64,000 nucleotides of DNA from Candidatus Magasanikiibacteriota bacterium (GTDB lineage Bacteria > Patescibacteriota > Patescibacteriia > Magasanikbacterales > GWA2-37-8): positions 1,162 to 65,161 of the forward strand of contig JACPGS010000007.1 in NCBI GenBank assembly GCA_016189025.1. The letters run 5' to 3'. Shown here one piece after another: positions 4,031 through 52,556 of this stretch. Made by a program: the position numbers and the translations under genes. The notes under the pieces were generated by a model that was not told where the DNA came from, ran no database searches, and saw only the letters and a program-made list of their open reading frames with translations. How positions within the stretch are numbered: the first letter of the stretch is position 1; each line of letters opens with the position of its first letter.

Positions 4031-4217
4031 GAGACTGCAGAAGAATAGAAATGACTAGTTAGCATCAGGGCGCGACAGACGAGTGTCTTTGGGCGCGCAC
4101 CCCGATTAAATCGGGGGAGCACCCAAAGAGTGTCTGCCGCGACCAACCAAGTAAATTTTAGCAATAGCGACAGCGACCAGGCGGAAAATGACATAGTTGA
4201 CATTCTTCTACAGTCTT
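4031..4217 (+). mobile_element. MITE-like intergenic repeat, family 1, copy A (forward)
   Basis: Left end GAGACTGCAGAAGAAT, right end ATTCTTCTACAGTCTT. Core hairpin GGCGCGACAGACGAGTGTCTTTGGGCGCGC - CCCGATTAAATCGGGG - GAGCACCCAAAGAGTGTCTGCCGCGACC, plus the TTAGCAATAGCGACAGCGACCAGGCGG box. Confidence 0.85.
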
Positions 4218-5798: not shown

Positions 5799-6944
5799 TT
5801 ATTTATTCACCGCGGCTAAAATGATGGCGGCCCGCGCCTGCCAGCTAAACTGCCGGCTCAACCGGCGCGAATTTTCCGCCAGTATAGCACAACGCGCCCG
5901 GTCTGCCAACAAATTGGCAAGGCTTCTAGCTAGGCTGGCCGGGTCATCGGGCCTAAACCACGCCGTGGTTTCTTCTGAGAGCACCTCGCGCAGCGCCGGG
6001 ACGTCCGCGGCAATAATCGGCCGCCCGGCGGCCAGATATTCAAACAGTTTAAGCGGCGAGGTATAGCGCGCGCCAATGTCAGTGTGCGCGCTGTTCGGCA
6101 GCACTAATACATCGGCGGCTGCTAGCCACCGCGGGATACGCTCCGGGCTCTGCCAGGGCACAATAGTCAGCTGGGGATTACTGTAGCGCTGCTGAAAAAC
6201 AGCTGCTTCAGCCGCGCTCCCGCCCACTAAATAAATCTGTGCCTTGCTGGCAACCGGTAAATGAGTGGCCGCAGCAGCCAAAGTATCTGCCCCTTTCCAA
6301 GAATAAAGATGGCCGGTGTAAACAACAATCGGCTGGTCCAGGGGCAAACCCAGTTCCCGGCGACATTCGGCCTGGCTGGGCAATCCCGCAAACATTTCTA
6401 AATCAACCGCGTCGCGGGCAATGGTGATTTTGCCAGCGGGGATTCCTATCTTCACTAGCGCTTCTTTCAGGCCGGCGCTAATCACAATAATTCCCTGGCA
6501 GCGCTCCCAGGTGCGCCGGTGGAACCCGGTTATCCGCTGCGGCAGGGTGTGGAGCTCCAGATATACCGGCTGGAGGCGGCGCGCCAGGAACCAGGCAATG
6601 ATGCTATCGCGAGTATAATAAATGCCAGGCGGGGCTGTCGCCAAATACCGTCGCGCCGCGCGGTAAAAAGTATAGCTCAAAATGAAAAAGCCTACCCTCC
6701 CCCACCCCCCGCTCGTTACCAAATCAAGCGCCGGCAGGCGGACAAGGGGAAACCTGGGCGCCGCCTGAAAAAATTCAAACGGATCAACGGCGGAATCAAC
6801 GCGCCGATCAGGCACCAGCATAGTCAACGGCGCCCCGGCCGCGGTCAGCGCCGCCGCGGTCTTGATAATCTGCCACCCATGCGCCCGGTCGCTGGGCAGG
6901 CGGATGGTGGCGAGGTAGTAAAAGGGCCGGGGCATAGGAGGCAA
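5799..6944 (-). CDS. GT4 glycosyltransferase (Glycos_transf_1)
   Basis: 381 aa. The C-terminal half has VVYTGHLYSWKG, LVGGS and LVLPNSAHTDIGARYTSPLKLFEYLAAGRPIIAADVP, typical of GT4. Confidence 0.7.
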   Translation of the reverse strand: MPPMPRPFYYLATIRLPSDRAHGWQIIKTAAALTAAGAPLTMLVPDRRVDSAVDPFEFFQAAPRFPLVRLPALDLVTSGGWGRVGFFILSYTFYRAARRYLATAPPGIYYTRDSIIAWFLARRLQPVYLELHTLPQRITGFHRRTWERCQGIIVISAGLKEALVKIGIPAGKITIARDAVDLEMFAGLPSQAECRRELGLPLDQPIVVYTGHLYSWKGADTLAAAATHLPVASKAQIYLVGGSAAEAAVFQQRYSNPQLTIVPWQSPERIPRWLAAADVLVLPNSAHTDIGARYTSPLKLFEYLAAGRPIIAADVPALREVLSEETTAWFRPDDPASLARSLANLLADRARCAILAENSRRLSRQFSWQARAAIILAAVNK

Positions 6945-7139
6945 GATCTCAAAATTAATAAATAAAATATATGGCTGTGGATAATTTTTTGGCTAACTTG
7001 TGCTATTTATCGTTTATGGAATCAAAATGCAATTGACAAACCTCCTATTTTCTGATAATGTAGAAATACATAAACCTGTATTCCGAACTGTCACCGGACG
7101 GTGGCGTGGCTGGGACATCCAGCATAGGAACGTGGTTGA

Positions 7140-7166
7140 AAAGAGCCCTTCGGGGCTGTTTTTTGT
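7140..7166 (-). terminator. hairpin AGCCC-TTCG-GGGCT with flanking T/A runs, immediately after the DUF3800 gene stop
   Basis: The sequence aaaagagcccttcggggctgttttttg is a tetraloop hairpin with U-tracts on both strands. Confidence 0.5.
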
Positions 7167-7792
7167 TATTTAAACTTCCATTCGTCCTGGATATGATTTT
7201 TAATTATTTTCTTATACACTACAGCGTCGGTCTTGAAATCCTCATACGAACGATGAATACTACCAGCAATCATATCGGCCATTTGAATGAGCACATTCTC
7301 CCTTGAATCCACTAACTTGCAATGCTGCACAATACGTCGCTCATCACTATTTAATTGTGAACGTAGATAACTCACAAAGCTTCTCCGAAAAACACGATCC
7401 CCGCTGCCGTCTACCTTTATCTTCGCATCCAGAATTTTTCCATCACTATATTGCAACACCAACTTAATGGCATAACTATAAAACGACCTCTTATTTGTTC
7501 GCAGCTCCTCACTTCGAATAATAGACTTATCAATAACTAAACTCCGCACCGCAAATGAGAAAGGTAAAATTGTTCTCAAGAATTGTTCGCGGACAGTCTT
7601 GCGTGATTTCGCGAATTTAAACTCTACCGTATCGGGGAAACCCAGTCGGCGCCGCAGTTCCTTGATGGCCACGGCCGCCTTTTCTGCTTCTAGTGGATCG
7701 CGAAAAATAATCAAGGAAATGATAAAGTACCGGCTCGAACCCCGGTCTAGCTTAAATCCCGGATCACCAGAATCATCTATGAATACGAGCAT
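7166..7792 (-). CDS. DUF3800-family protein
   Basis: 208 aa with N-terminal MLVFIDDSGDPGF and later IQMADMIAGSI, resembling DUF3800 signature motifs. Local GC is about 38-40%, versus about 60% in the flanks. Confidence 0.5.
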   Translation of the reverse strand: MLVFIDDSGDPGFKLDRGSSRYFIISLIIFRDPLEAEKAAVAIKELRRRLGFPDTVEFKFAKSRKTVREQFLRTILPFSFAVRSLVIDKSIIRSEELRTNKRSFYSYAIKLVLQYSDGKILDAKIKVDGSGDRVFRRSFVSYLRSQLNSDERRIVQHCKLVDSRENVLIQMADMIAGSIHRSYEDFKTDAVVYKKIIKNHIQDEWKFK

Positions 7793-8734: not shown

Positions 8735-8924
8735 GAGACTGTAGAAGAATTGAAAAATCAGTTAGCATCGGGGCGTGGCAGACGAGTGTCTTTGGGCGCG
8801 CATCCCCCGCGTCGGCGGGGGGAGCACCCAAAGAGTGTCTGCCACGCCCGACCAGGTTAAACTTAGCAATAGCGATAGCGACCAGTTAAATAGCAGTATT
8901 TCCGGCATTCTTCTACAGTCTCAA
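8735..8924 (+). mobile_element. MITE-like repeat, family 1, copy B (forward)
   Basis: Perfect 16-bp TIR GAGACTGTAGAAGAAT / ATTCTTCTACAGTCTC. The core has apical loop TCCCCCGCGTCGGCGGGGGG. Confidence 0.85.
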
Positions 8925-12077: not shown

Positions 12078-12767
12078 TTAATAAAAACGATACTTAAATA
12101 AGGTCCAAATGGCAATTAAGCCGTCGCGCCAGTTGATTTTTTTGCCTTGAGCTTTGGTGCGGGGGGTATAACTGATGGGAACCTCAACAATTTTTTTTCC
12201 CGCCCGCGCCAGTTGCGCCGTCACTTCTGGGCAGAACGCAAAATCATCGGCCCGCAACGGGAGGCTCAATAATACCTCGCGCCGGAAGCATTTGTAGCCG
12301 GTCGGCTCGTCGGTGAGCGTTGTCTGGTATAATAAATTAGTGAGCGCAGTTAAAAATAATCCCCCGAAAAAGAAAAGCCAGCCGCTCTTTTTTGCTTCGC
12401 GCCAGCGCCGCCCCAATAAGCGCGAGCCGTAAACCGCCTCGGCGCCGGTAACGCGCGCCGCCGCCATAATGGCAACATAATCCGCCGGATCGTACTCCAG
12501 GTCCGCATCCTGGATAATTACCCACTCGCCGGTGGCGCGGGAAAGACCCGAGCGCACCGCCGCCCCTTTGCCGCGATTGCGCGGATGCCTGATGACCAAA
12601 CAATCATGGGCTCCGGCAAGGACAGCGGCGGTTCCGTCGGTAGAGCCGTCGTCAACCACAATCACCTCTTTGACAACATCAGGGATTTCAACCGCCCCCA
12701 CGCGCCGCAGCACCTCGGCAATCGTCGCCTGCTCATTGTAGACTGGAATAATGATTGACAGTTTCAT
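12078..12767 (-). CDS. GT2 polyprenyl-phosphate sugar synthase (Dpm1/GtrB-like) with C-terminal TM
   Basis: MKLSIIIPVYNE, VVDDGSTDGT, IQDADLEYDP, GSR. Confidence 0.8.
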   Translation of the reverse strand: MKLSIIIPVYNEQATIAEVLRRVGAVEIPDVVKEVIVVDDGSTDGTAAVLAGAHDCLVIRHPRNRGKGAAVRSGLSRATGEWVIIQDADLEYDPADYVAIMAAARVTGAEAVYGSRLLGRRWREAKKSGWLFFFGGLFLTALTNLLYQTTLTDEPTGYKCFRREVLLSLPLRADDFAFCPEVTAQLARAGKKIVEVPISYTPRTKAQGKKINWRDGLIAIWTLFKYRFY

Positions 12768-12774
12768 AATTTTT

Positions 12775-12848
12775 GAGACTGTAGAAAATACCGGCAATAC
12801 CCACTGTTTAACTGGTCGCTATCGCTATTGCTAAAACTCACTTGGTTG
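12775..12848 (-). repeat. MITE family 1, truncated copy C (right arm only, reverse orientation)
   Basis: GAGACTGTAGAAAAT...CTGGTCGCTATCGCTATTGCTAAAACTCACTTGGTTG matches the reverse complement of the TTAGCAATAGCGACAGCGACCAGG...ATTCTTCTACAGTCTC arm. The hairpin core is absent. Confidence 0.7.
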
Positions 12849-12851
12849 TTA

Positions 12852-14717
12852 CTACAATTTCTTAATAAACTTCTCATACCACAACTGCCACATTACCACT
12901 GACCAAATGGTATTAAGATGGTAGCCGCCGGCTAAATGCTCGCGCCAAATCTGGCGGACCGCGTCGCCGTTAAACCATTCAGCGGCCAGGCGATCCGGAG
13001 AGAGAATGCTGTTCACGGTACTCCGGAGCGACTCCTGGCGCAGCCATTTGGCGGTGGGGGTAAACCAGCCGCGCTTGGGCTGGCGTTTAACTGCCGGCGG
13101 CAGATATGAATCTATTGCCTGGCGCCACAAGTGTTTGCCGACAAACGAACCCGGGATCGTACGGCCTACTTTAATCTGCCACCGGCTGGGAATTTTTGCC
13201 GCCAGCTCCACCAAGCGAATATCCAAAATCGGCACCCGCGGCTCCAGCCCCGAAGACATTGTCAGCTTATTGCTGCGCAAGAGCGATTCGTCGGGCAGCC
13301 AGCTGCCCCGATCCAACTGCTGAAACCAGCGGACAAAATCTTGCTTAATATAGGGAGGCAAAGGAAACTGCGCTGCCAATAAACTGCTAGCGGCGCCGGA
13401 ATGATACTGCTCGCGATTAAGCAGCGGCGCCAGCGCCTGCTCTTTTTGGCACAAAAAAGCCACCGCGCGCGCCATGGTCGGCGGTAATCCCAATTTATCG
13501 GCTGTTTTCTGATAACCGCAAGCCGAGAACAAGCGCCGGACTATCGTTTGCGCCCCGCCCGGCAGTTTCTGGAAACGCTCAATCAGCGCGCTGTAGTAAT
13601 AGCGCGGATAGCCGCCGAATAATTCATCGCCGCCGTCGCCGCCCAGTACCACCGCGACCGATTGTTTGGCCAAGCGCGCCAGCAAAAAAATCGCGGCGGC
13701 GGTGGCGTTGGCGTTAGGTTCATCCAAATGCCAGACAATCGCCGGCAGTTCCCGCGCCAGATCATCCGGCCCTACTAATAATTCGTGATGATCGGCGCCG
13801 TACCAGCGCGCAGTCTGCCGCGCCAGGCGAAAATCCGTATTAAATTTTTCCTCATCGCGGCTGGCGCGGAAACCCACGGAATAAGTTTTAATTTTGCCTC
13901 CTCCGCGCTCGGCCACCGCTCCCAACACGGCCGTGGAATCAAGGCCGCCGCTTAAAAATATCCCTACCGGCCGATCGGAAACCAGCTGGTCGCGGACAGC
14001 GTTACGGAACAGATCGCGCAAGCGGCCAACGGTTTCGGCCGGATCGGTAAGCGTTGACCAATCGGTAATTTGCCAATAACGCTCCACTTTAATCCCCTCC
14101 CCTTCCTGCCAGCGCAAATAATGCGCGGGCGGCAATTTTTTGATGCCAAGGAACATGGTGTGGGGCGCCGGCACGTAGAGAAGTTCAAAAAATAAACTAA
14201 AGGCCTCTCGGTCCACGGCACGGGGGATATCGTGCGCCAAAATCGCCTTAATTTCCGAAGAAAAAATCAGCCGCTGGCCGTCCCAAAAATAATACAGGGG
14301 ATTGACTCCGCCCGGATCGCGCGCTAACCACAGCTCGCGCGACCGGGCATCCCAGATGGCAAAAGCAAAAATGCCGTTGAATTTAGCCAGGCAGTCGCGG
14401 CCGTATTCGCGGTAGGCATAGAGCGCTACTTCGGTATCGGAAGCGGAACGAAATTGATATTTGGGCTCCAGGGCGCGGCGCAATTCCTGAAAGTTATACA
14501 GCTCGCCGTTGTAGACAATACAAATTTCGCCGGCCGCGTCCCACATCGGTTGAGCCCCGCGCTCCGACAAATCAATAATGGCGAGCCGGTTATGGCCGAG
14601 GCTAATCCCCTCCCCCACCCAGCAATTAGTCTGATCCGGGCCGCGGTGGCGCGTCCGCCGGTTCATCTCCTCAATTTTCTGCCGATCGGCGAAAGTAAAA
14701 CCGTTAATGGCGCACAT
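12852..14717 (-). CDS. asnB: asparagine synthetase (glutamine-hydrolysing) / AsnB-family amidotransferase
   Basis: Begins MCAINGF (Cys2 nucleophile). Has the LSGGLDSTAV PP-loop, 621 aa. Confidence 0.85.
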   Translation of the reverse strand: MCAINGFTFADRQKIEEMNRRTRHRGPDQTNCWVGEGISLGHNRLAIIDLSERGAQPMWDAAGEICIVYNGELYNFQELRRALEPKYQFRSASDTEVALYAYREYGRDCLAKFNGIFAFAIWDARSRELWLARDPGGVNPLYYFWDGQRLIFSSEIKAILAHDIPRAVDREAFSLFFELLYVPAPHTMFLGIKKLPPAHYLRWQEGEGIKVERYWQITDWSTLTDPAETVGRLRDLFRNAVRDQLVSDRPVGIFLSGGLDSTAVLGAVAERGGGKIKTYSVGFRASRDEEKFNTDFRLARQTARWYGADHHELLVGPDDLARELPAIVWHLDEPNANATAAAIFLLARLAKQSVAVVLGGDGGDELFGGYPRYYYSALIERFQKLPGGAQTIVRRLFSACGYQKTADKLGLPPTMARAVAFLCQKEQALAPLLNREQYHSGAASSLLAAQFPLPPYIKQDFVRWFQQLDRGSWLPDESLLRSNKLTMSSGLEPRVPILDIRLVELAAKIPSRWQIKVGRTIPGSFVGKHLWRQAIDSYLPPAVKRQPKRGWFTPTAKWLRQESLRSTVNSILSPDRLAAEWFNGDAVRQIWREHLAGGYHLNTIWSVVMWQLWYEKFIKKL

Positions 14718-14721
14718 AACA

Positions 14722-15726
14722 TTAGACCATCGGCAATTTCACCCCTAGCCTGGCGCAGTCGGCCTCTACCATCAGGCGCACCAGCGCTCGAAACGAAGTG
14801 CGCGGCTGCCAGCCCAGTTTTTCCCGGGCTTTGCCGGGGTCGCCCACCAGGCGGCGGGTATCGGTAGGGCGGAAAAACTGGGAATCAATCACCACATAAT
14901 CAGACGCCTGGAGACCCGCCAGGCGAAACGCTTCGTCCACAAACTCCTGCACTGCATGCGACTCGCCGGTGGCGATGACATAATCGTCCGGCTTGTCCTG
15001 CTGCAGCGAGAGCCACATCGCTTCCACAAAATCCTGCGCATAGCCCCAGTCTTTTTCCGCGGCGAGGTTCCCCAGCCGCAATTCGCGGCGGGTGCCGGCC
15101 AGAATCTCCGCCACCCCCCGGGCAATTTTGCGGGTAACAAAATTTTCGGCGCGCCGGGGCGATTCGTGATTAAACATAATGCCGGTGCAAGCGAACAACT
15201 GATAGTTCTCGCGATAATTGATGGTCATAAAATGAGCAAAAGTTTTGGCGCAGGCATAGGGACTAGTAGGAAACACCGGCGTGGTTTCCCGCTGCGGCAC
15301 TTCCGCCGGCGCGGCGCCGAACATTTCGGCGCTGGAGGCCTGAAAAAAACGCATCGGCTTTTTGCTGGCGCGCATCCACTCCAGCAAGCGCACCGTCCCC
15401 AGGCCCACGATATTAGCGGTATATTCGGGAATCTCAAAGCTGATTGCCACGTGGCTTTGCGCTCCCAAATTGTAAAGTTCATCCGGATCAGCCAGCGTCA
15501 GAATGCGAAACAAGCTGCTGCTGTCGGTCAGGTCGCCGTAATGCAGTTGGAGTTGGCCGGAAGTTTCCGCCGCTGCCAGGTGAGCCAGGCGCTCGCGCGG
15601 ATTATGGCTGGAGCGGGCAATCAGCCCGTGCACTTGATAGCCTTTGCCTAATAATAATTCTGCCAGGTAACTGCCGTCCTGGCCGGCAATGCCGGTAATG
15701 AAGGCGCGCTTGGGCATATTTAGCAA
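14722..15726 (-). CDS. gmd: GDP-mannose 4,6-dehydratase
   Basis: KRAFITGIAGQDGSYLAELLLGKGYQVHGLIARSS, LHYGDLTDSSSL and NLGAQSHV are hallmark Gmd blocks. The true start is probably MPKRAF at 15717. Confidence 0.85.
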   Translation of the reverse strand: MLNMPKRAFITGIAGQDGSYLAELLLGKGYQVHGLIARSSHNPRERLAHLAAAETSGQLQLHYGDLTDSSSLFRILTLADPDELYNLGAQSHVAISFEIPEYTANIVGLGTVRLLEWMRASKKPMRFFQASSAEMFGAAPAEVPQRETTPVFPTSPYACAKTFAHFMTINYRENYQLFACTGIMFNHESPRRAENFVTRKIARGVAEILAGTRRELRLGNLAAEKDWGYAQDFVEAMWLSLQQDKPDDYVIATGESHAVQEFVDEAFRLAGLQASDYVVIDSQFFRPTDTRRLVGDPGKAREKLGWQPRTSFRALVRLMVEADCARLGVKLPMV

Positions 15727-15743
15727 TCAGCTAATCAGCAGAT

Positions 15744-16989
15744 TCAGCGATCAGCTGATAGTAATAATTGTTCTAATTCGGTACGCACTATGTTATCCAG
15801 CACTTCCTGGCTGAATAATTTAGTAGCCAGGGCAACCGCGGCCTGCGACAGTTGCTGCCGCAGGGAAAAAGACTGCAAACGCTCCAAAGATGCCACAAAC
15901 TCTTCCGGAGTTACGCCGGTTAAAACTGATTCATTAGGACGGAACGGATAGCCGGCCAGCCCCCGGCCGTGGGTAATGGTGGGGAACCCCCCGGCCGTGG
16001 GTAATGGTGGGGAACCCGCGCGCCAGCGGCTCAAAAATTTTCTGCTGCATGCCGGCGCCGGAAAGCGAGGGAATCATCGCAATATCCATCGGCTGCAGGG
16101 CGGCATTAAGGTCATCCACATATCCCTCATAATGCACGTTATCGCGAATAAATGATTGCAAATCCGCCGGGAATTTCATGCCGAAGATGTGGAACTGAAA
16201 AGCATCGCCAAATTTCTTAAACACCCGCGGCGCCACCTGGCGCACCACAAACTCCAGCGCCTGCCGGTTATGCGATACGTGGTAGGTGGAACCCATAAAA
16301 AATACTTTCAACGGCTGGCGATTCCCCGGCGGCGTATGGGTACCGATAGTATGAGAAAATCCGCGCAAGGGCAAATTCACGGCATGCCGCGCCCCCCAGC
16401 GCTGGTACTGCTGCTCTTCATCCGGCGTAATGGAAAACAGCACGCCCGCCCGCCGGCCGCTGATATACTCGGTATAAAATTTAGGCAAAGAGCGCAAATA
16501 ATTAAACAGCGTGCGGCCGTCTTCCTCCAAAAAATGGCGCGCTTCAAAATTAATGGAGCGCACCACGATCGGGGTGGCGCGGGGAATCAGCCGGAACAGC
16601 GGCCAAAGATAAGTATAATCGCACCAGACAATATCTGGCTGAAAGCGCTTGACTGCTTCGCGCACCGTATCTCGCATCCGCGGCTCCACATACTCCAAGG
16701 TGGCCGGGTCCAGGCGCCCGGGATGCGGCAGAGTATAGCGCAGCCGCTCTAACTGTTCGCGCCAACCACCGCCGATATAGCGGTAAGGCACCAGGGTCAA
16801 GGGCACCCCGCTGGCTTTCCATTTAGCGCGAATTTCCTCCGGGTCCTGCCAGGTATAGAGCTTACCGATTACTTCAATCTCATATCCTAAGCGGGGCAAT
16901 TGGCGCAGATTCTCGGCCCGATCCTGCTCGCAGGCGCCGCTCGCCGGCTCGGGAAAACGGGGAGTGATGACGAGGATGCGTTTGGACAC
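15744..16989 (-). pseudogene. GT4-like glycosyltransferase split into two frames by a 28-bp tandem duplication (frameshift)
   Basis: ORFs 15934..16989 and 15744..16034 both encode GFPTITHGRG at their junction. The DNA at 15971..16026 is CCCCGGCCGTGGGTAATGGTGGGGAACC repeated twice (28 bp each). Confidence 0.5.
15971..16026. repeat. perfect 28-bp tandem duplication inside the glycosyltransferase ORF
   Basis: ccccggccgtgggtaatggtggggaacc occurs twice in a row. The length is not a multiple of 3. Confidence 0.9.
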
Positions 16990-17013
16990 AATATTATCGG
17001 AATGACAAAAACC

Positions 17014-17706
17014 CTAAGCAAATAAATTATATTTTACAATTGCCCAAATAGCGCTAAAGCCGTCGCGCACGCCGATTTTTTTACCCTCGGCATAGGTGCG
17101 TCCATAATAAGAAATGCCGACCTCATACACCCGCAGGCGGTGCTTGGCGACCCGCGCCGTAATCTCGGGCTCAATGGTAAACCGGTTGGCCGTCAGCTCT
17201 GGCGCAATGGTAGCGAGCGCGGCGCGGGTAAATGCTTTGTAGCAGGTTTCCATATCGGTGAGGTTGAGATTGGTGCAGAGGTTGGAAAGCCAGGTTAAAA
17301 ACTTGTTGCCGACGTAATGCCAAAACAGCAACACCCGATGCGGGCGGCTCCCCACAAAGCGCGAACCATAAACAACATCGGCCACGCCCTGTACTAAAGG
17401 CGCCAACAGATCGCGATACTCGCGGGGGTCATATTCCAAATCCGCGTCCTGCACAATAATAAAGTCACCGGTGGCCTCGCGAAACCCGCGGCGCAAGGCT
17501 GCTCCCTTGCCGGAATTTTTCTCCTGAAAAAAAATTTTGTGCTGGCCGGCCAGCCGCTGCAGAATCTCCCGCGTGCCGTCGGTGGAGCCATCGTCTACAA
17601 TCACTAGTTCTTTTTCCATGCCAGCATCTACTTCGGCTACTGCTGCAATCACCGGCAGAATAGTAGCGGCTTCGTTGTATACCGGAATCACTACGGAAAG
17701 TTTCAT
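17014..17706 (-). CDS. GT2 polyprenyl-phosphate sugar synthase (Dpm1/GtrB-like)
   Basis: MKLSVVIPVYNE, VDDGSTDGT, VQDADLEYDP. Confidence 0.8.
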   Translation of the reverse strand: MKLSVVIPVYNEAATILPVIAAVAEVDAGMEKELVIVDDGSTDGTREILQRLAGQHKIFFQEKNSGKGAALRRGFREATGDFIIVQDADLEYDPREYRDLLAPLVQGVADVVYGSRFVGSRPHRVLLFWHYVGNKFLTWLSNLCTNLNLTDMETCYKAFTRAALATIAPELTANRFTIEPEITARVAKHRLRVYEVGISYYGRTYAEGKKIGVRDGFSAIWAIVKYNLFA

Positions 17707-17708
17707 AC

Positions 17709-18881
17709 TTACTCCTCAAAATAATCAATAATTTTCCCAATCACCGTATCCAAATTATGATGCGCGCGAACAAAACCAATCGCTGCTTGATTAGGCAACT
17801 TTTCCGGCTTTAGTATACCATTCTGCCACATTTTTTCAATGGTTTGGGCCAGGGCCGCCGCGTCTCCGGCGGGGAAGGTCCACACTACTCCCGCGCGCTC
17901 GGCATCAGCATAGGCAGGGCTAGAAGTGATAACGTAGCGGCCGGCGGCGAGCGCCTCCAACACTACCTTATCCGCGCTGCCGGTGCGGCTGGGGTGGATA
18001 AGAAGATGATAACGATGATAAATACTGGGCATCTCCAGATAATCCTTCCGCTCACTGCGGAAACCTACTGCCCTGCCCCGGCTTGGTCGCTCGGTCGCGG
18101 CAGACACTCTAGGTGCTCGCGGAGCTGCGCGCCTAGAGAACTCGTCTGCGGCTCCCTCGCTCATTCGTAATTCAAAGTTATTAGTCATTTCCTCTAAATA
18201 CTTTTGATAATGCTTATCGGCTGCCGTAATTGGACTGCCGACAATGGTAAAACGTAAATGGGGAAAATCAGGCACCTGCTGGAGTTGGATTAAGGCTTGG
18301 AAGATAATTTCGTAATTCTTCACTGCACTAATCCGGCCGACCGCTAAAAGCCACAATTCATGAGGATCGGCAATCTCTTCCGGTCCCGCCGCGAATAATT
18401 CCACCGGAATCCCGTGCCCCACCACCTCCACCTTGGCGCTCGGCAAGCGAAAACTCTCCGGCGAGGCGGTGAAAATTTTGTCCGCTCGCTTTTCCGCCTG
18501 CTTCAACCACCAGTTAACTGATTTATGCACATACCAAAGGAGAATTTTTTTCTGATGTTTCCGCCACCACCAACCGCCGAGCACCACATATTCCGGATTC
18601 ATGTGAACGAAAACACCATCATAATCATTTTGATACTGCCGGATCAAGCGACGAAAACGGAAATAATAAACCAAACGCCGTAGTAGTTTAGGGAGTCTTA
18701 ACATCTTTTCCTTTCCCAGCGACAATACGGTAACATTATTCGGCAACTCAAATTCACCTTGTTCCAAACAAATCACAATCAAGCGCTCGGTGCGCGCCGA
18801 GAGGCGGCGCAGCCATTCAAGAAAAAACCCCAGCGCCGGATCGGCGCGGTCTACTTTTTGAGTAATCACCAATAAACGCAT
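17709..18881 (-). CDS. GT4 glycosyltransferase carrying an in-frame insertion of a MITE family-1 core
   Basis: GT4 C-terminal motifs are IHPSRTGSADKVVLEALAAGRYVITS. An insert of about 35 aa, AADEFSRRAAPRAPRVSAATERPSRGRAVGFRSER, is encoded by the repeat core. Confidence 0.7.
   Translation of the reverse strand: MRLLVITQKVDRADPALGFFLEWLRRLSARTERLIVICLEQGEFELPNNVTVLSLGKEKMLRLPKLLRRLVYYFRFRRLIRQYQNDYDGVFVHMNPEYVVLGGWWWRKHQKKILLWYVHKSVNWWLKQAEKRADKIFTASPESFRLPSAKVEVVGHGIPVELFAAGPEEIADPHELWLLAVGRISAVKNYEIIFQALIQLQQVPDFPHLRFTIVGSPITAADKHYQKYLEEMTNNFELRMSEGAADEFSRRAAPRAPRVSAATERPSRGRAVGFRSERKDYLEMPSIYHRYHLLIHPSRTGSADKVVLEALAAGRYVITSSPAYADAERAGVVWTFPAGDAAALAQTIEKMWQNGILKPEKLPNQAAIGFVRAHHNLDTVIGKIIDYFEE
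18084..18168 (-). repeat. MITE family-1 hairpin core inserted in-frame within a GT4 CDS (copy K)
   Basis: CTTGGTCGCTCGGTCGCGGCAGACACTCTAGGTGCTCGCGGAGCTGCGCGCCTAGAGAACTCGTCTGCGGCTCCCTCGCTCATT aligns with the intergenic copies, for example 52440..52540. The reading frame is preserved. Confidence 0.75.
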
Positions 18882-18885
18882 AAAT

Positions 18886-20118
18886 CTACCACCAACGCCC
18901 CAGGCGTTCGCTGACAGTGCCAAAATTCAACAGCACATCAGCGGCGGTGAGCGCCAAAAGAGAAACGGCAACGCCCACCGCCGGCGCGCGGCGCCACCAA
19001 CCCGGGGTTTCGCGCGCCCAGACTACCAATAGTCCGGCACCCAAAGCCAACCATGGATAAAGCGGAAAGCGATAACGCGACTGCACAACGGTAAACAATA
19101 ACGGCAAGGGGGCAGTAAGAGCCAAAGCCAGCAGATATTTCAGGAGCGGCTGGGGTGATTGGCGCCAAAATAGTGCCAGCCCGGCACCGCCGCTTAAGAA
19201 TAAAATGGCGATGCTTAACGTCGAAAAGGCAACAAAAATAAGCTGACTTAAACCGTACTGATAAAACCAAAATCCCATCGGCCGGATCAAACTCCCGTAG
19301 CGAATTAGTCGCAGGGCAGTAAGTTTAAGGAAAACTAAAGGATGAGCGGTCAAAAACGACCAAAACTCGCGGCTGGCTTCGGCCGAGAGTCCGCCATAGC
19401 CATACTGCTCGCCGTAAACACGCACCGGATTTAGTCCACCGGAGAGTTGCCCGCCGTCCGCCGCCAAAGTATTGCCGATCCATAGATTAAAAGCGCCGAT
19501 CAGAGTAGTGGGGATAAACTCATGAAACACCAGGTAATTGCGCACGGTCCAGGGGACCAGGGGAATAATCAGGCCAAGAAAAAACGGAATCAACGCCCGA
19601 TAACGGCGGGTGGCAATAAACGCTGCTAAAAATACCGGTACGAACAGCACTACCGTAGGGCGGGTGAGAATCGCCAGGGCGCTGACGACGCCAAGGACAA
19701 GAGCTGAACTAAGCCGCGCCTGACTCCGCCACCACTCTACAAAAAGATACACTACCAGCACGGCCAAGAAAAGAAACAGCGTTTCGGTTAAAAGCATTGC
19801 CGAGATTTCAATTAAATCTGGATGCAGCCCAAACAGAGCGGCGGTGATAATCCCCACCAGTTTCCCCCGCTCGCCCCACACGCGCCGCGCGATTAGATAT
19901 AAGAGGAGAGCGGAAAACGCGTGCAGCAGGGATTGGACTACCCAAACCGGCTGGTAGCGATGGCCAAACAGAGCATAAACTGCAGCCAGCCAAAATTCAT
20001 ACCCCGGCCCGGCGCGGGTAATCGCTAAATCGCGGGTAAACCCCTGGCTGCGATCTTCCCGAAAGCCATCACCGCTGACCAGATTCCAGGCAATAGAATC
20101 ATAAGCTTTGGCGTCCAC
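18886..20118 (-). CDS. GT-C fold membrane glycosyltransferase (ArnT/PMT-like, GT39/83); the N-terminal TM helix is encoded upstream, beyond an in-frame TGA
   Basis: Begins (GTG) DAKAYDSIAWNLVSGDGF, which matches the ArnT DE..Y...SGD motif. The same frame at 20230..20149 encodes MFQSWRRLINNNRLLAIIIAASFLLSLGYSF, then TGA. Confidence 0.55.
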   Translation of the reverse strand: MDAKAYDSIAWNLVSGDGFREDRSQGFTRDLAITRAGPGYEFWLAAVYALFGHRYQPVWVVQSLLHAFSALLLYLIARRVWGERGKLVGIITAALFGLHPDLIEISAMLLTETLFLFLAVLVVYLFVEWWRSQARLSSALVLGVVSALAILTRPTVVLFVPVFLAAFIATRRYRALIPFFLGLIIPLVPWTVRNYLVFHEFIPTTLIGAFNLWIGNTLAADGGQLSGGLNPVRVYGEQYGYGGLSAEASREFWSFLTAHPLVFLKLTALRLIRYGSLIRPMGFWFYQYGLSQLIFVAFSTLSIAILFLSGGAGLALFWRQSPQPLLKYLLALALTAPLPLLFTVVQSRYRFPLYPWLALGAGLLVVWARETPGWWRRAPAVGVAVSLLALTAADVLLNFGTVSERLGRWW

Positions 20119-20234
20119 CGCCGGCGGAATGCGGAATCAAAATGAGTAGCCAAGCGATAACAAAAAAGACGCGGCAATAATTATTGCCAGCAGCCGATTA
20201 TTGTTAATTAAACGCCGCCAAGACTGAAACATAG

Positions 20235-20422
20235 TAGATTGCAGCAGAATAGGAACAACTAATTAGCATCAGGGCGCGGCAGACGAGTATCTTTGGGCGC
20301 GCAGCCCCGCGTAAGCGGGGGGAGCACCCAAAGAGTGTCTGCCGCGACCAACCAGGCAATCCTAGCAATAGCGATAGCGACTAGGCGGATAACGATATAG
20401 TTGGTATCCTTCTCCAGTTTCA
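20235..20422 (+). mobile_element. MITE-like repeat, family 1, copy D (forward; degenerate TIRs)
   Basis: TAGATTGCAGCAGAAT ... core with loop GCCCCGCGTAAGCGGGGGG ... TAGCAATAGCGATAGCGACTAGGCGG ... ATCCTTCTCCAGTTTC. Confidence 0.8.
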
Positions 20423-21415
20423 TTAAATCGCACGTAATGCTTTAACCCACTGCTCTTGATTATTGATCGGCAAAATTTGTACTGATTCCCCGGGCAGCAC
20501 CTCATAATTCGCCACGCCCACGTCATTCATAATCACGCGAGTACCCGCGGCCATCGCCTCCATTACGGCTAGACCATAACCTTCACTTAAACTGGGGAGC
20601 AGCAGGGCGTCAACTGTTTTAAGATAGCTCCACGGGTCAGCGGTCCACCCTTCCAGCTTGACATTATTCTCCAGCCGCAATTTTTTAATCAAACGGCGTA
20701 TCCGCGCTTCCGCGCGCCCGGCCCCGGCCAAAAGCAACAGCGCCCGCGGCCGCTCGCGTACCACGGCGGCGAATGTTTTAACCAGCCAAGGCACGTTCTT
20801 TACCGGATCTAAGCGCCCTAGCCACAAAAAAATAGGGCCAAACCCGGGATATTTTTCGCGCGCGGAAAATCGCGGTGCCCAAGCGCGAATCGCTGCCGTA
20901 TCCACCGCAATCGGCTGCACCGTAATTTTATCTGCCGCCACTCCCAAGGAGAGTACGCCGCGCTTTACCCGCTCCCCCACTGCCCGCACCCAAGTAGCGC
21001 GGCGCAAGACGAACTTGCCCAAGTGCCAGCGCAACTGCTCCCCTAGGCTGCCGTGGCGATAATAAGCCGACAGATAAAAATCGCCATGCGCCTGCACCGT
21101 AAGCGCGGCGCCGGTTTCGTATTTCAAAAACCAACCTATCAGCCCGGTTCCAAACGGATCCTGGGCGGTAATCGCGGGAATCTGCCGCTCCTGAATCAGC
21201 CGCTTGCCGCTGGCAAGAAGCCGAAAAAATTGCTGCGGTTTGTTGCCGCCGGTGGATTGCACGTGCACCGTGGGGCTTAAATCCAAGGCCGCCCGCTCCG
21301 GCGCGGGAATAATAATAAATAATTCATCCGTCTCTCCATATTGCCGCATCCGCCCGGCGGCGCGCGAGTGCGGATCCAAAATAGAGCGATCCAGGCTAAT
21401 CATTAGTTGACGCAT
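20423..21415 (-). CDS. GT4 glycosyltransferase
   Basis: FLWLGRLDPVKN, LLLAGAG and LLLPSLSEGYGLAVMEAMAAGTRVI are typical of GT4. Confidence 0.7.
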   Translation of the reverse strand: MRQLMISLDRSILDPHSRAAGRMRQYGETDELFIIIPAPERAALDLSPTVHVQSTGGNKPQQFFRLLASGKRLIQERQIPAITAQDPFGTGLIGWFLKYETGAALTVQAHGDFYLSAYYRHGSLGEQLRWHLGKFVLRRATWVRAVGERVKRGVLSLGVAADKITVQPIAVDTAAIRAWAPRFSAREKYPGFGPIFLWLGRLDPVKNVPWLVKTFAAVVRERPRALLLLAGAGRAEARIRRLIKKLRLENNVKLEGWTADPWSYLKTVDALLLPSLSEGYGLAVMEAMAAGTRVIMNDVGVANYEVLPGESVQILPINNQEQWVKALRAI

Positions 21416-21482
21416 AGTTTATCCACACAAATACACTTGACAAATTTCTGCTTTCATTTATAATAATAATATTCCTACGAAA

Positions 21483-21527
21483 AAAACCCTTATGCGGTTC
21501 TGTCCGCATCGGGGGTTTTTTCTTTTT
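21483..21527 (-). terminator. bidirectional rho-independent terminator hairpin ATGCGG-N6-CCGCAT flanked by A7 / T6
   Basis: aaaaaaacccttatgcggttctgtccgcatcgggggttttttc. It overlaps the 3' end of the NYN gene. Confidence 0.55.
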
Positions 21528-22017
21528 GGGCCTGTAATACGGTTTTTTGATCGTTAATATAAGCAATGGCTACCCCTGTTCTTTTAAGCAAAATTGAGCA
21601 TCGCCGTGTTTCATAGGGCGAAAGTATAACCTGAATTTTTTGTTTTTCCCCTAAGAAAGCGACCAGGCTGGCATAATCGCCGTCGCTGGAAACCAAAATT
21701 GCCTTATTAAAGGTATTTTCATAGGCATCCCTCATTACTCGCACTACAAGATCCGCGTCGCAATTGCCTTTTATCTTGCCGTTGTCGTCGTAGGTTACTT
21801 CTTTAAAAACTAGGGTAAACCCTATTTCTTGCAGATAGGTATACAAATTTTTATATTTCGGAACCAACCCCAAAAATAAATAGGCCTGTTCTACCCTATA
21901 TTTTTCGCGAAGCCAAATGCGTAATCTGCCGTAGTCTAGCTGCCAACCCAGTTGCTTGGCGCCGTTGTGCAAATTCGCGCCGTCAATGTAGGCAAAATTT
22001 CTATCGGTTAATTTCAT
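21490..22017 (-). CDS. NYN/LabA-like (PIN-fold) domain protein
   Basis: AYIDGANLH, GNCDADLVVRVMRD and LVSSDGDYASLV are NYN-domain acidic motifs. It sits in a block with lower GC. Confidence 0.6.
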   Translation of the reverse strand: MKLTDRNFAYIDGANLHNGAKQLGWQLDYGRLRIWLREKYRVEQAYLFLGLVPKYKNLYTYLQEIGFTLVFKEVTYDDNGKIKGNCDADLVVRVMRDAYENTFNKAILVSSDGDYASLVAFLGEKQKIQVILSPYETRRCSILLKRTGVAIAYINDQKTVLQAQKEKTPDADRTA

Positions 22018-22039
22018 AATTAAAATCAAGCTGGCGTCA

Positions 22040-23224
22040 TCAACTGGCGCAAACCTGCTGCAGGGCCTGCCTAGTCAGGGCAATCATGTTATCACCTGAT
22101 AAACCCTTATTGGGTAATAATTGCTGTCTATTTTTAATAATTATCTCTCTTGTTTTGTTATCAGTAGTAAGCTTTAGTATTCCTGAAATCATTACCTCTT
22201 TTTCGTCCGGCTTAAAAAGCAAGCCGTCAGGGAATTGATAGCGACGTTGTAACAGTTCAACATGCGCGACAATGTTGCTCGCAAACACCGGACAACCCAC
22301 TAACCACGATTCTAATATCACATGCGGTAAACCTTCATAACGACTATTAAGAACCAGCAGACCGGATTTGGCCATTTCGCGCAACGCTTGATCATGCGAC
22401 AAAGGGCCGAGCATCTGTACGGCGGATTCTAATTGTAACTGTTGAATTAAAGATTGAATCCGTCCACGTTCTGGTCCATCTCCAATAATGACCAACTGAT
22501 AACTACTGTCCCGACGAAGTAGTTCTGGCATTATTTCTACCATGGTCATTACTCCTTTCCACGGCATGAGCCGACCAATAATAATTATCCTCTTTAGATT
22601 TTTTGGCGAGGAGGCTAATTCAGTTAGAAGTTCGGTCGGTAAAAATACCTCATTATATATAACCCGCACTCGCTCCGGATTAACCCCCCACCCGATCACC
22701 AATTCTTCCAGATATTCACTTGGTACAATGACCAAACTAGCATGTTTAGTGACCGCTATTTCTTTATTCCGTAAAGATCCAATTTTACCACGATACTGAC
22801 GTTTTTGGAAGTCGTCAATCCCCTCTTTTACTAGCCCCAGCACCTGCCCCTGCTCCCAGGCATAATCGCCCACCACCTTCACTGCCAGCTTTTTCTTTCT
22901 CGGACGTAGCAGGCAAGCCAACCGCGCTGGCCAGCCAGCGTTAACAGGCCCCATTGCATACACAATATCTGTCCGCCAAATGAGTACCCACAAGAGCAAA
23001 AAGTATTCACCATAGCGAAACAGCATATTTTTAAAATGAACCCGATATAGTTTAACTTTCGGATCAAGCACGCCCTTATCTGATTGCTTATTCAAGGATA
23101 CAATTTTTACCTTTATTCCTTGCTTTACCAATTCATTCGCCAGCGTAACGCAGTACGTCGCCGGCCCACCGGATTCGGGCGGAAAAATATCAGCGGCAAT
23201 AAGTAACCTCATATAATAGATCAA
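22040..23224 (-). CDS. GT4 glycosyltransferase
   Basis: IIIGRLMPWKG, LVIIGDGPE and LVLNSRYEGLPHVILESWLVGCPVFASN. Confidence 0.7.
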   Translation of the reverse strand: MIYYMRLLIAADIFPPESGGPATYCVTLANELVKQGIKVKIVSLNKQSDKGVLDPKVKLYRVHFKNMLFRYGEYFLLLWVLIWRTDIVYAMGPVNAGWPARLACLLRPRKKKLAVKVVGDYAWEQGQVLGLVKEGIDDFQKRQYRGKIGSLRNKEIAVTKHASLVIVPSEYLEELVIGWGVNPERVRVIYNEVFLPTELLTELASSPKNLKRIIIIGRLMPWKGVMTMVEIMPELLRRDSSYQLVIIGDGPERGRIQSLIQQLQLESAVQMLGPLSHDQALREMAKSGLLVLNSRYEGLPHVILESWLVGCPVFASNIVAHVELLQRRYQFPDGLLFKPDEKEVMISGILKLTTDNKTREIIIKNRQQLLPNKGLSGDNMIALTRQALQQVCAS

Positions 23225-34086: not shown

Positions 34087-34145
34087 AACAGCAGAGTAAG
34101 CCCGGTGTAAGCAATAATGAGCGAGGGAAATGAGCGAGGGAGTGG

Positions 34146-34225
34146 TAGACGGGTTCCCTACGCGCGCACCCCCGCGTAGGCGGGGGGAGCACGGAGGGTG
34201 TCTACCACGACCGAGCGACCAGGTT
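34146..34225 (+). repeat. divergent MITE family-1 core (copy J, core only)
   Basis: GTGGTAGACGGGTTCCCTACGCGCGCACCCCCGCGTAGGCGGGGGGAGCACGGAGGGTGTCTACCACGACCGAGCGACCAGG. The hairpin architecture is retained with a GCGT-type apical loop. Confidence 0.6.
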
Positions 34226-34272
34226 AGGGCATTTGGTATTCAGGGGTGTTACGATTGTACCACCGGCGCGGC

Positions 34273-39804: not shown

Positions 39805-39982
39805 AAATTGTTGCAGAAGAATCCAAACTATTTCACCTGATTCGCCTGGTCGCTGTCGCTATTGCTGGGACTGCCTGATTGGTCGCGGCAGACACTCTTT
39901 GGGTGCTCCCCCGATTTAATCGGGGTGCGCGCCCAAAGACACTCGTCTGCCGCTCCCTGATGCTAACTGGTTTCTTCAAATT
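39805..39982 (-). mobile_element. MITE-like repeat, family 1, copy E (reverse)
   Basis: TTGCAGAAGAAT...CCTGGTCGCTGTCGCTATTGCT...GGTCGCGGCAGACACTCTTTGGGTGCTCCCCCGATTTAATCGGGGTGCGCGCCCAAAGACACTCGTCTGCCGC... Confidence 0.85.
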
Positions 39983-52369: not shown

Positions 52370-52382
52370 ATCCAGATTGAGG

Positions 52383-52556
52383 TTGTTGAAGAATATGACA
52401 TTGTTATCCGCCTGGTCGCTGTCGCTATTGCTAAAATTTACTTGGTTGGTCGCGGCAGACACTCTTTGGGTGCTCCCCCGATTTAATCGGGGTGCGCACC
52501 CAAAGACACTCGTCTGCCGCTCCCTGATGCTAACTGATTATTCCTATTCTTCTAGA
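52383..52556 (-). mobile_element. MITE-like repeat, family 1, copy H (reverse)
   Basis: GTTGAAGAAT ... core with loop CCCGATTTAATCGGGG ... ATTCTTCTAG. Confidence 0.85.

What the first reader, a model, noticed from the sequence alone, without database searches (positions are those of the whole stretch)
15971..16026. Perfect 28-bp tandem duplication frameshifts a glycosyltransferase gene
CCCCGGCCGTGGGTAATGGTGGGGAACC occurs twice back-to-back. Both resulting ORFs encode GFPTITHGRG at the junction. One copy would restore a single glycosyltransferase ORF of about 406 aa (15744..16989 minus 28 bp). This could be a recent inactivating mutation, a reversible slipped-strand on/off switch for a surface-glycan enzyme, or an assembly artefact.
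Basis: seen in the sequence. Interest (0 to 1): 0.55.

Follow-up and report, generated by a model that had tools for sequence, protein, structure and literature searches.

The report
Duplication-split glycosyltransferase gene, not fixed
A perfect 28-base tandem duplication splits a conserved sugar-transferase gene in this groundwater bacterial genome, but five independent assemblies of the same population carry the intact one-copy gene, so it is a minority mutant allele or a scaffolding error and not a demonstrated switch.

Summary
CCCCCGGCCGTGGGTAATGGTGGGGAAC occurs twice back to back at 15960..16015, and the period-28 identity runs to 16017. About 7e-12 such repeats are expected by chance.

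The duplication sits in a minus-strand GT-B/GT4 glycosyltransferase gene within a glycan-synthesis cluster of a Candidatus Magasanikbacteria MAG. It shifts the frame after Gly334. This gives a 351-aa product that lacks the last 71 residues, plus a 96-aa leftover ORF.

Removing one copy gives a 405-aa protein. That protein is identical to one encoded on Logan contigs from five sequencing runs. Those contigs match the window end to end apart from the missing 28 nt and, in the four that reach it, one synonymous SNP at 16384. All 80 orthologous loci examined are uninterrupted. A fixed pseudogene is therefore excluded.

Without reads I cannot separate two readings. One is a real sub-population loss-of-function allele (about 0.45). 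The other is an IDBA-UD scaffolding duplicate (about 0.40). A selected reversible on/off switch has no positive support (about 0.08). Interest is low.

In passing, I found an approximately 85-nt palindromic repeat family with at least 9 copies. One copy is inserted in frame in the neighbouring glycosyltransferase gene.

The parts
15960..15987 (.). Copy 1 of the 28-nt unit CCCCCGGCCGTGGGTAATGGTGGGGAAC. On the minus strand it encodes part of GFPTITHGRG.
15988..16015 (.). Copy 2 of the unit, 100% identical. Deleting either copy restores the reading frame.
   Evidence: the one-copy contigs L001-L004 and L009 lack exactly 28 nt here
16016..16017 (.). A 2-nt (CC) extension of the period-28 identity. 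This is junction microhomology, so the exact duplication boundary is ambiguous by 2 nt.
15934..16989 (-). The 5' fragment ORF of 351 aa. Residues 1-334 are native GT-B glycosyltransferase sequence. They are followed by 17 out-of-frame residues and a premature stop. It is deposited as MBI2443838.1.
15744..16034 (-). The 3' leftover ORF of 96 aa with a TTG start and no Shine-Dalgarno-like sequence upstream. Its last 81 residues, from 15989 down, are the native C-terminus (residues 325-405). It is deposited as MBI2443837.1 (HYV42_01170) and has no Pfam hit on its own.
16384..16384 (.). A synonymous SNP at His202. The window has CAT and the four one-copy Logan contigs that reach this position, plus L005, have CAC. 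It is the only other difference between the MAG and the Logan contigs in about 14.8 kb compared. Contig L007 (SRR12113433) stops at 16385, as expected for an unresolved SNP bubble.
12078..23224 (-). Context: a co-directional glycan-synthesis cluster. It contains a GT2, an asparagine synthase, a GDP-mannose 4,6-dehydratase, the split GT4, another GT2, a GT4 carrying the palindromic insert, a PMT_2-type membrane glycosyltransferase and further GT4 genes.

Best explanation
The two-copy form is a non-fixed loss-of-function allele of a conserved retaining-type GT-B (GT4-like) glycosyltransferase in a surface-glycan cluster of a groundwater Candidatus Magasanikbacteria population. A spontaneous 28-nt tandem duplication, with 2-nt junction microhomology typical of replication slippage, adds 28 nt (+1 frame). 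Translation leaves the native frame after Gly334 and stops 17 codons later. One beta-strand and the three C-terminal helices (residues 335-405) are lost, so the enzyme is presumably inactive in cells that carry it. This allele sits on a sub-population haplotype marked by the synonymous SNP at 16384, and the MAG assembler followed that haplotype. The dominant haplotype in the aquifer keeps the intact one-copy gene. Precise loss of one copy could revert the allele, but nothing indicates a programmed or selected switch. Shown: the duplication, the frameshift, the intact allele in the population, and the fold. Inferred: that reads contain the two-copy junction, its linkage to the SNP, and loss of activity.
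For: The duplication and the frameshift are shown. The repaired protein equals Logan protein P0121 (405 aa) exactly. Five run assemblies carry one copy: SRR12113401, -390, -419, -385 and -422. They are otherwise identical to the window; the four contigs that reach 16384 differ there by one synonymous SNP. The MAG therefore differs from them at a second, nearby site. L007 from SRR12113433 ends exactly at that SNP, which indicates real microdiversity at the locus. It is the only SNP in about 14.8 kb compared and lies about 370 nt from the duplication. The 2-nt junction microhomology fits a slippage origin. There are no Ns anywhere in the window, whereas the documented IDBA-UD join error leaves Ns. 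Pfam places the protein in Glyco_trans_1_4 (51.5 bits, cut-off 27) and Glyco_trans_4_4 (35.2 bits, cut-off 29.7). The AlphaFold model has pLDDT 94.6 and a GT-B fold, and its best PDB matches are GT4 enzymes. The C-terminal 71 residues are conserved in homologues.
Against: The two-copy form is seen only in the deposited MAG. No Logan contig carries it. No contig begins at the repeat, as a k=31 graph would force if two copies dominated in a run. The look-up for that contig start was negative, and its control was positive. SRR12113422 gives the longest contigs and is 100% identical to the window over 8.4 kb, so it is the likely source run, yet it assembles as one copy. The MAG pipeline was MEGAHIT followed by IDBA-UD scaffolding, which has a documented habit of leaving duplicated sequence at joins. 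The unit length of 28 equals k-1 for k=29, which I recall (not checked here) is in MEGAHIT's default k list. The duplication also falls in the most conserved motif of the family, where assembly graphs tend to break.
Confidence: 0.45

Rival explanations
1. Scaffolding or assembly artefact. Two MEGAHIT contigs whose ends truly overlapped by 28 nt were joined end to end by the IDBA-UD scaffolder without trimming the overlap. This created a perfect tandem duplicate that exists in no cell. The real gene is the intact 405-aa one-copy form.
For: Every independent assembly that spans the site (five runs) has one copy and is otherwise identical to the window apart from one synonymous SNP. This includes SRR12113422, the run with the longest and 100%-identical contigs. 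No contig breaks at the repeat (with the control). MBI accession interpolation identifies the MAG as most probably NC_groundwater_394_Ag_B-0.1um_53_17. That MAG was assembled with MEGAHIT 1.2.9 and then scaffolded with IDBA-UD. Chen et al. 2020 report that IDBA-UD scaffolding leaves duplicate sequence at joins despite overlap (PMC7111523). The unit length of 28 equals 29-1, and 29 is, as I recall, a default MEGAHIT k. The site is the most conserved motif of a family that is abundant in this CPR-rich community, which is a typical graph break point.
Against: The documented error leaves Ns between the duplicates, and the window has none. At about 17x coverage, a contig end with only a 28-nt overlap requires a local coverage hole. 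The MAG also differs from all five run assemblies at a real SNP about 370 nt away, which suggests it follows a genuinely different haplotype. The 2-nt extension of identity is expected for slippage but has only about a 7% chance under blunt concatenation (inference).
Confidence: 0.4
2. Reversible on/off (phase-variation) switch. The population toggles this surface-glycan enzyme by gain and precise loss of the 28-nt copy, as pneumococci toggle capsule genes by spontaneous sequence duplication.
For: A tandem duplicate is inherently revertible by slipped-strand deletion (established knowledge). The target is a glycosyltransferase in a surface-glycan cluster, which is the classic kind of phase-variable gene. 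Both allelic states are recorded for one population: the MAG versus five runs. Precedent exists in reversible duplications in pneumococcal cap3A, cap8E and tts (cited in PMC4243769).
Against: The ON state has no repeat tract, so ON-to-OFF switching would occur only at the ordinary de novo duplication rate. There are only two copies, not an expandable array. There is no recurrence in 80 orthologous loci and no perfect tandem duplication of 20 nt or more in 526 kb of those loci. The DNA has no special folding propensity (z = 0.17). The OFF allele has not been seen in any independent assembly. The linked SNP suggests a single mutational event on one lineage, not repeated switching.
Confidence: 0.08
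3. Fixed pseudogene. The lineage has lost this enzyme for good, and the split is the species' normal state.
For: The deposited MAG annotates two separate proteins.
Against: Five run assemblies of the same population (differing from the window at one SNP at most) carry the intact gene. There are no secondary mutations. Outside the extra copy, the two fragments encode exactly the protein of the intact allele, and the only DNA difference is one synonymous SNP. All orthologues are intact.
Confidence: 0.02
4. The split gene still works, either through programmed ribosomal frameshifting across the duplicate or through assembly of the 351-aa and 96-aa products.
For: None beyond the two ORFs overlapping at the junction.
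Against: There is no slippery-site or structure signal. The 96-aa ORF starts at TTG without a Shine-Dalgarno-like sequence. No homologue is split in this way. The intact allele coexists in the population.
Confidence: 0.02

Closest known systems
Pneumococcal capsule phase variation by spontaneous tandem sequence duplication (cap3A; cap8E and tts; Waite et al. 2001 and 2003, as cited in PMC4243769)
   Same: A perfect tandem duplication of tens of bases inside the ORF of a surface-polysaccharide synthesis gene frameshifts it. Precise loss of one copy restores it.
   Different: In pneumococci, switching was shown experimentally, at high frequency, and with many independent duplications. Here there is one duplication in one assembly. 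There is no evidence of recurrence or reversion, and its presence in reads is not even confirmed.
Simple-sequence-repeat contingency loci in glycosyltransferase genes (for example the homopolymer or tetranucleotide tracts of Neisseria lgt, Haemophilus lic2A/lgtC and Campylobacter LOS genes; from my own knowledge)
   Same: The target class is the same (surface-glycan glycosyltransferase). The on/off outcome also comes from a frameshift caused by a change in repeat copy number.
   Different: Those loci carry multi-copy tracts of 1-7-nt units that are hypermutable in both directions and conserved across strains. Here the unit is 28 nt, the copy number is 1 or 2, and the intact allele has no repeat at all.
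IDBA-UD scaffolding error that leaves duplicated sequence at a join (Chen et al. 2020, Genome Res, PMC7111523)
   Same: The same scaffolder was used for this data set. The error produces an exact duplicate of the overlapping contig ends and yields broken gene calls in deposited MAGs.
   Different: The described error has Ns between the duplicates, and here the copies abut with no N. The error cannot be confirmed without read mapping.
Retaining GT-B fold GT4 glycosyltransferases (M. hassiacum ManT 7qsg, PimA 2gej, BshA 6n1x, MshA 3c4q, PglA 8dqd)
   Same: The repaired protein has the two-Rossmann-domain GT-B fold (pLDDT 94.6). These enzymes are its best structural matches (Foldseek E-values about 1e-13 to 1e-11, TM 0.64-0.71). 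It also matches the Pfam Glyco_trans_1_4 and Glyco_trans_4_4 domains.
   Different: Sequence identity is only 10-17%. There is no PDB hit by sequence alone. The donor and acceptor are unknown. It belongs to a distinct subfamily, largely from CPR bacteria, with the motif GAGMQQKIFEPLxRGFPTIT.

Membership tests
GT-B fold glycosyltransferase, GT4-like (Pfam Glyco_trans_1_4 / Glyco_trans_4_4) | Pfam domain matches above the curated gathering scores | tested here: met
   For the repaired protein, PF13692 scores 51.5 bits (cut-off 27), PF13579 scores 35.2 (cut-off 29.7) and PF13524 scores 30.4 (cut-off 25).
GT-B fold glycosyltransferase, GT4-like (Pfam Glyco_trans_1_4 / Glyco_trans_4_4) | Two Rossmann-like domains, with C-terminal helices returning to the N-domain, and structural similarity to solved GT4 enzymes | tested here: met
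   The AlphaFold2 model has pLDDT 94.6 and pTM 0.91. The top Foldseek PDB hits are GT4 enzymes, with E-values about 1e-13 to 1e-11 for the named hits and 320 hits at E <= 0.001.
GT-B fold glycosyltransferase, GT4-like (Pfam Glyco_trans_1_4 / Glyco_trans_4_4) | Catalytic activity and sugar donor/acceptor specificity | not testable with these tools
   There is no close characterised homologue. The best NCBIfam hit is far below its cut-off (36.6 bits against 316).
Phase-variable (contingency) locus | A hypermutable repeat tract is present in both the ON and the OFF states | tested here: not met
   The one-copy (ON) allele in L001-L004 and L009 contains the unit once and has no repeat. The OFF allele has exactly two copies.
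Phase-variable (contingency) locus | ON and OFF alleles coexist within one clonal population | tested here: inconclusive
   One copy is found in five run assemblies and two copies only in the MAG. The two forms differ at a linked SNP. Read support for the two-copy allele is unknown.
Phase-variable (contingency) locus | Recurrence of the repeat or of frameshift variants across strains or orthologues | tested here: not met
   All 80 orthologous loci are uninterrupted. No perfect tandem duplication of 20 nt or more occurs in 526 kb of those loci. All protein homologues are about 385-420 aa.
Phase-variable (contingency) locus | Measured high-frequency reversible switching | not testable with these tools
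   This needs reads across the time series, or cultures.
Fixed pseudogene | The disruption is shared by all members of the population or lineage, usually with further decay | tested here: not met
   The intact allele is present in five runs. Outside the extra copy, the fragments encode exactly the intact protein.
Scaffolding-join duplicate (IDBA-UD type) | The assembly pipeline used the scaffolder known to make this error | tested here: met
   He et al. 2021 used MEGAHIT 1.2.9 and then IDBA-UD scaffolding. The MAG is assigned to that study by accession interpolation and by Logan run numbers, which is probable but not proven. The error is described.
Scaffolding-join duplicate (IDBA-UD type) | The duplicate copies flank a run of N | tested here: not met
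   There are no Ns in the window and the copies abut directly.
Scaffolding-join duplicate (IDBA-UD type) | No read supports the junction between the copies | not testable with these tools
The indirect evidence (one-copy Logan contigs and no contig break at the repeat) is compatible with this feature but not decisive.

The most novel reading that the evidence does not exclude
An episymbiotic CPR bacterium (Candidatus Magasanikbacteria) switches a surface-glycan glycosyltransferase off and on within its aquifer population by gain and precise loss of a 28-nt tandem copy. This would be an analogue of pneumococcal capsule phase variation in an uncultivated ultra-small bacterium whose surface glycans probably mediate host attachment or phage recognition.
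Probability: 0.07. Interest if true: 0.5.

Novelty: new member of a known kind. Interest (0 to 1): 0.15.

Why it matters
The practical consequence is for annotation. MBI2443838.1 (351 aa, 'glycosyltransferase') and MBI2443837.1 (96 aa, 'hypothetical protein') are two halves of one 405-aa enzyme that is intact in the population, and they should not be treated as separate proteins or as gene loss. If the allele is real, it is one example of loss-of-function microdiversity in the surface-glycan cluster of a CPR bacterium. That fits the expected pressure from hosts or phages on such genes, but it does not establish it. If the allele is an artefact, it is a concrete case of a scaffolding duplicate without Ns reaching public databases. 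Neither outcome changes current understanding.

Tried and rejected
1. I looked up guessed partial products in the protein collection to detect Logan contigs that break at the repeat. Both positive controls were absent from that index, so the test was uninformative.

2. I repeated the idea with the look-up of encoding contigs. The control for 5'-truncated products worked. The predicted 81-aa product of a contig starting at the repeat is not on record.

3. Exact 23-mer flank scans of genome contigs and metagenome contigs found nothing. There are therefore no further alleles in those collections.

4. P0001, the truncated protein, has no gene-position record.

5. I searched papers for the SRR run numbers and the supplements for the locus tag, and found none. 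The assignment of the MAG to NC_groundwater_394 rests on MBI accession interpolation, GC and coverage naming, and the Logan run numbers.

6. A hairpin-driven mechanism is not supported. The DNA fold of the region is no better than shuffles (z = 0.17).

7. A second copy of the unit elsewhere that could cause misassembly does not exist. There is none with up to 3 mismatches.

8. A PDB search by sequence gave no hit, so I used a fold search instead.

9. Other perfect tandem repeats in the window (periods 12, 13 and 16 nt) do not point to a systematic join artefact. The 16-nt repeat at 50948 lies inside an intact 805-aa ORF, the 13-nt repeat at 34116 is intergenic, and I did not examine the two 12-nt repeats.

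10. The 1263-aa protein look-up found no Logan record.

Full report
**Observation**

The + strand of the window reads ...GCCGGCCAG|CCCCCGGCCGTGGGTAATGGTGGGGAAC|CCCCCGGCCGTGGGTAATGGTGGGGAAC|CCGCGCG....
- Tandem Repeats Finder reports period 28, 2.1 copies and 100% matches at 15960-16017.
- A direct scan shows period-28 identity from 15960 to 15989, so the repeat spans 15960..16017 with a 2-nt boundary ambiguity.
- From the base composition, 7e-12 such runs are expected in the window.
- The unit occurs nowhere else, even allowing 3 mismatches.
- It is the only perfect tandem duplication with period of 20 nt or more in the 64 kb.
Its stated coordinates are about 10 nt too high.

**What the duplication interrupts**

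The gene lies on the minus strand.
- The ORF 15934..16989 (351 aa) and the ORF 15744..16034 (96 aa) overlap at the duplicate. Both contain GFPTITHGRG.
- Removing one copy gives a 1218-nt ORF of 405 codons plus a stop.
- The repaired protein matches Pfam Glyco_trans_1_4 at 51.5 bits (cut-off 27), Glyco_trans_4_4 at 35.2 bits and Glyco_trans_1_2 at 30.4 bits. The 96-aa piece alone matches nothing.
- With a 54-sequence alignment, AlphaFold2 gives a confident GT-B model (pLDDT 94.6, pTM 0.91).
- The best PDB neighbours of that model are retaining GT4 enzymes: ManT 7qsg, PimA 2gej, BshA, MshA and PglA. Their E-values run from about 1e-13 to 1e-11 and their TM scores from about 0.64 to 0.71.
- There is no PDB hit by sequence alone.
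- The frameshift occurs after Gly334. The 351-aa product then carries 17 foreign residues and lacks strand 346-348 and helices 352-361, 365-383 and 385-404.
- The lost segment, and the motif GAGMQQKIFEPLxRGFPTITxxRGxAxYxF in which the duplicate sits, are strongly conserved among homologues.
- Loss of activity is inferred from these facts. It was not tested.

**Gene context**

The gene lies in a co-directional cluster. The neighbours are a GT2, an asparagine synthase, a GDP-mannose 4,6-dehydratase, the split GT4, another GT2, another GT4, a PMT_2-type membrane glycosyltransferase and more GT4 genes. This is a cell-surface glycan or glycosylation cluster.

**Origin of the sequence**

- The 351-aa and 96-aa products are NCBI proteins MBI2443838.1 and MBI2443837.1 (HYV42_01170). 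They come from a Candidatus Magasanikbacteria MAG contig of 66,367 nt.
- Homologous proteins from MAGs NC_groundwater_97, _181 and _703 have accessions MBI1956898, MBI2045846 and MBI2989764. Interpolation places MBI2443838 near MAG number 394-401.
- The study's supplementary table lists NC_groundwater_394_Ag_B-0.1um_53_17, a Magasanikbacteria MAG with 53% GC and 17x coverage, from the agricultural site, sampled 2018-06-06. The window has 54.3% GC.
- The MAG is therefore most probably from He et al. 2021 (PMC7906910). That study used MEGAHIT 1.2.9 with default parameters, followed by IDBA-UD scaffolding, with each filter assembled separately.
- This assignment is an inference, not a database look-up.

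**The intact allele exists in the same population**

- P0121 is encoded on contigs from four runs: SRR12113401, -390, -419 and -385. These contigs align to the window end to end with exactly one 28-nt gap and one mismatch.
- The mismatch is the same in all four. It is at window 16384, CAT versus CAC at His202, and is synonymous.
- A fifth run, SRR12113422, covers the site with contig L009 (16080..12819). That contig has one copy and no mismatch.
- SRR12113422 also yields the longest contig found, L010 of 8.4 kb. L010 is 100% identical to the window apart from 26 nt at one end that fall in a repeat. This run is therefore the likely, though unproven, source of the MAG.
- Three further runs have contigs that stop before the site: L006, L007 and L008.
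- L007 (SRR12113433) ends at 16385, directly beside the SNP. This is what an unresolved SNP bubble looks like in a k=31 graph (inference).

**How far Logan contigs can speak to two copies**

Logan contigs are built at k=31 (my recollection; not checked here), and the repeated string is 30 nt.
- A two-copy genome would therefore form a loop, and contigs would break at the repeat. Contigs could not span two copies.
- This explains why the absence of P0001 from Logan is not informative on its own.
- A break at the repeat would be informative, so I looked for one. 5'-truncated products are indexed (control). The 81-aa product expected from a contig starting at the repeat is not on record.
- None of the seven contigs carrying the upstream GT2 gene ends at the repeat.
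- Two copies therefore do not dominate in any run that Logan assembled with usable coverage. A minority two-copy allele could have been removed as a low-coverage bulge (inference).

**Orthologues**

- More than 100 homologues at 42-58% identity are all about 385-420 aa and align over 96-100% of the repaired protein.
- In 80 orthologous loci from GTDB representative genomes, tblastn gives a single uninterrupted HSP in every case. Five of those loci come from MAGs of the same study and pipeline.
- Those 526 kb contain no perfect tandem duplication with period of 20 nt or more.
- One copy is therefore ancestral, the split is not recurrent, and a fixed pseudogene is excluded.

**Real allele or artefact**

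Evidence for a real sub-population allele:
- The MAG differs from all five run assemblies at a genuine SNP about 370 nt away. This is the only SNP in about 14.8 kb compared.
- The junction has 2-nt microhomology.
- There are no Ns in the window.
- A de Bruijn assembler cannot invent junction k-mers.

Evidence for an artefact:
- The two-copy form is unique to the MAG, while the probable source run assembles as one copy.
- The scaffolder used is documented to leave duplicate sequence at joins where contig ends overlap, although in that description Ns separate the duplicates (PMC7111523).
- The unit length equals 29-1, and as I recall 29 is a default MEGAHIT k.
- The site is the most conserved motif of a family that is abundant in the community, and such motifs are typical graph break points.

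I rate these two readings as nearly even: 0.45 for a real allele and 0.40 for an artefact.

**The switch hypothesis**

Tandem duplicates are intrinsically revertible. Pneumococci use exactly this route in capsule genes (Waite et al. 2001 and 2003, cited in PMC4243769). Several findings here argue against a switch:
- The ON allele has no repeat tract.
- Only one duplication is known.
- There is no recurrence among orthologues.
- The DNA has no unusual folding propensity (z = 0.17).
- The linked SNP points to one event on one lineage.

I give a selected switch 0.08.

**Verdict**

- The gene is a conserved GT4-like glycosyltransferase that is intact in the population.
- The two-copy state is either a minority loss-of-function haplotype or a scaffolding duplicate.
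- A single k-mer count in the public reads would settle the question.
- Interest is low.

**Seen in passing**

- The window holds at least nine copies of an approximately 85-nt long-hairpin repeat with the consensus TTAGCATCAGGGAGCGGCAGACGAGTGTCTTTGGGCGCGCA...GGAGCACCCAAAGAGTGTCTGCCGCGACCAACCA. The alignment fold predicts 28 base pairs, and 7 of them show compensatory double changes.
- The repeat has no Rfam family and no exact core match in the JGI metagenome contigs.
- Eight copies are intergenic. One (about 18055-18165, minus strand) lies in frame inside the neighbouring GT4 ORF 17709..18923.
- Deleting the corresponding 38 residues restores a contiguous Pfam domain match. The match changes from profile positions 66-142 only to positions 4-142, and the score rises from 51.4 to 59.3 bits.
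- Logan contigs break inside these elements, for example at 18113 and at the start of L010.

Noticed in passing
window 4050-4144(+), 8771-8859(+), 18074-18165(-), 20253-20362(+), 34129-34231(+), 39881-39958(-), 41474-41571(-), 52448-52525(-), 59354-59434(+): A family of at least 9 copies of an approximately 85-nt long-hairpin (palindromic) repeat, with consensus ...GGGAGCGGCAGACGAGTGTCTTTGGGCGCGCA-loop-GGAGCACCCAAAGAGTGTCTGCCGCGACC.... RNAalifold predicts 28 pairs, and 7 of them show compensatory double changes. It has no Rfam family and no exact core match in the JGI metagenome contigs. It resembles a REP or MITE element. Logan k=31 contigs end inside copies.
   Followed up: partly
window about 18055-18168 (minus strand), inside ORF 17709..18923: One copy of the palindromic element lies in frame inside a GT4 glycosyltransferase ORF and adds 38 R/A/P-rich residues (254-291). 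Deleting them turns a split Pfam match (profile 66-142, 51.4 bits) into a contiguous one (profile 4-142, 59.3 bits). This recalls the in-frame Rickettsia palindromic elements (from my own knowledge). Whether the gene still functions is unknown.
   Followed up: partly
window 16384; contig ends at 16385 (L007), 16157/16080 (L005/L009), 14964 (L001, L002): The only SNP between the MAG and the Logan contigs in about 14.8 kb is synonymous and lies about 370 nt from the duplication. Several run assemblies break at non-repeat positions inside this gene cluster. In SRR12113422 there is a 76-nt stretch (16081-16156) covered by no retrieved contig. This suggests local strain microdiversity or low coverage.
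   Followed up: partly
window 34116-34141: A perfect 13-nt tandem duplication (AATGAGCGAGGGA, two copies) sits at the 5' edge of the intergenic palindromic-element copy. The same 13-mer begins the in-frame copy at 18165.
   Followed up: no
window 50948-50989: A perfect 16-nt unit (GCTGATTGCTGAATCT, 2.6 copies) lies inside an intact 805-aa minus-strand ORF (50045..52462). From the DKTGT-like motif nearby I read the ORF as a P-type ATPase, which I did not verify. The repeat does not break the frame.
   Followed up: no
window 7073-7141 (+): There is an Rfam match to DUF3800-IX RNA (RF02968) at 54.4 bits against a gathering score of 36.8. It lies in the gap between ORFs 5799..6944 and 7166..7792. 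Two tRNAs are at 43387-43459 and 60194-60267.
   Followed up: no
L025 833-871 (JACOYO010000001.1, NC_groundwater_181, same study): A perfect 19-nt tandem duplicate of a small hairpin (TTCCGCCCAGGGCGGATGC, two copies) lies in an intergenic gap of another MAG from the same pipeline. It disrupts no gene.
   Followed up: partly
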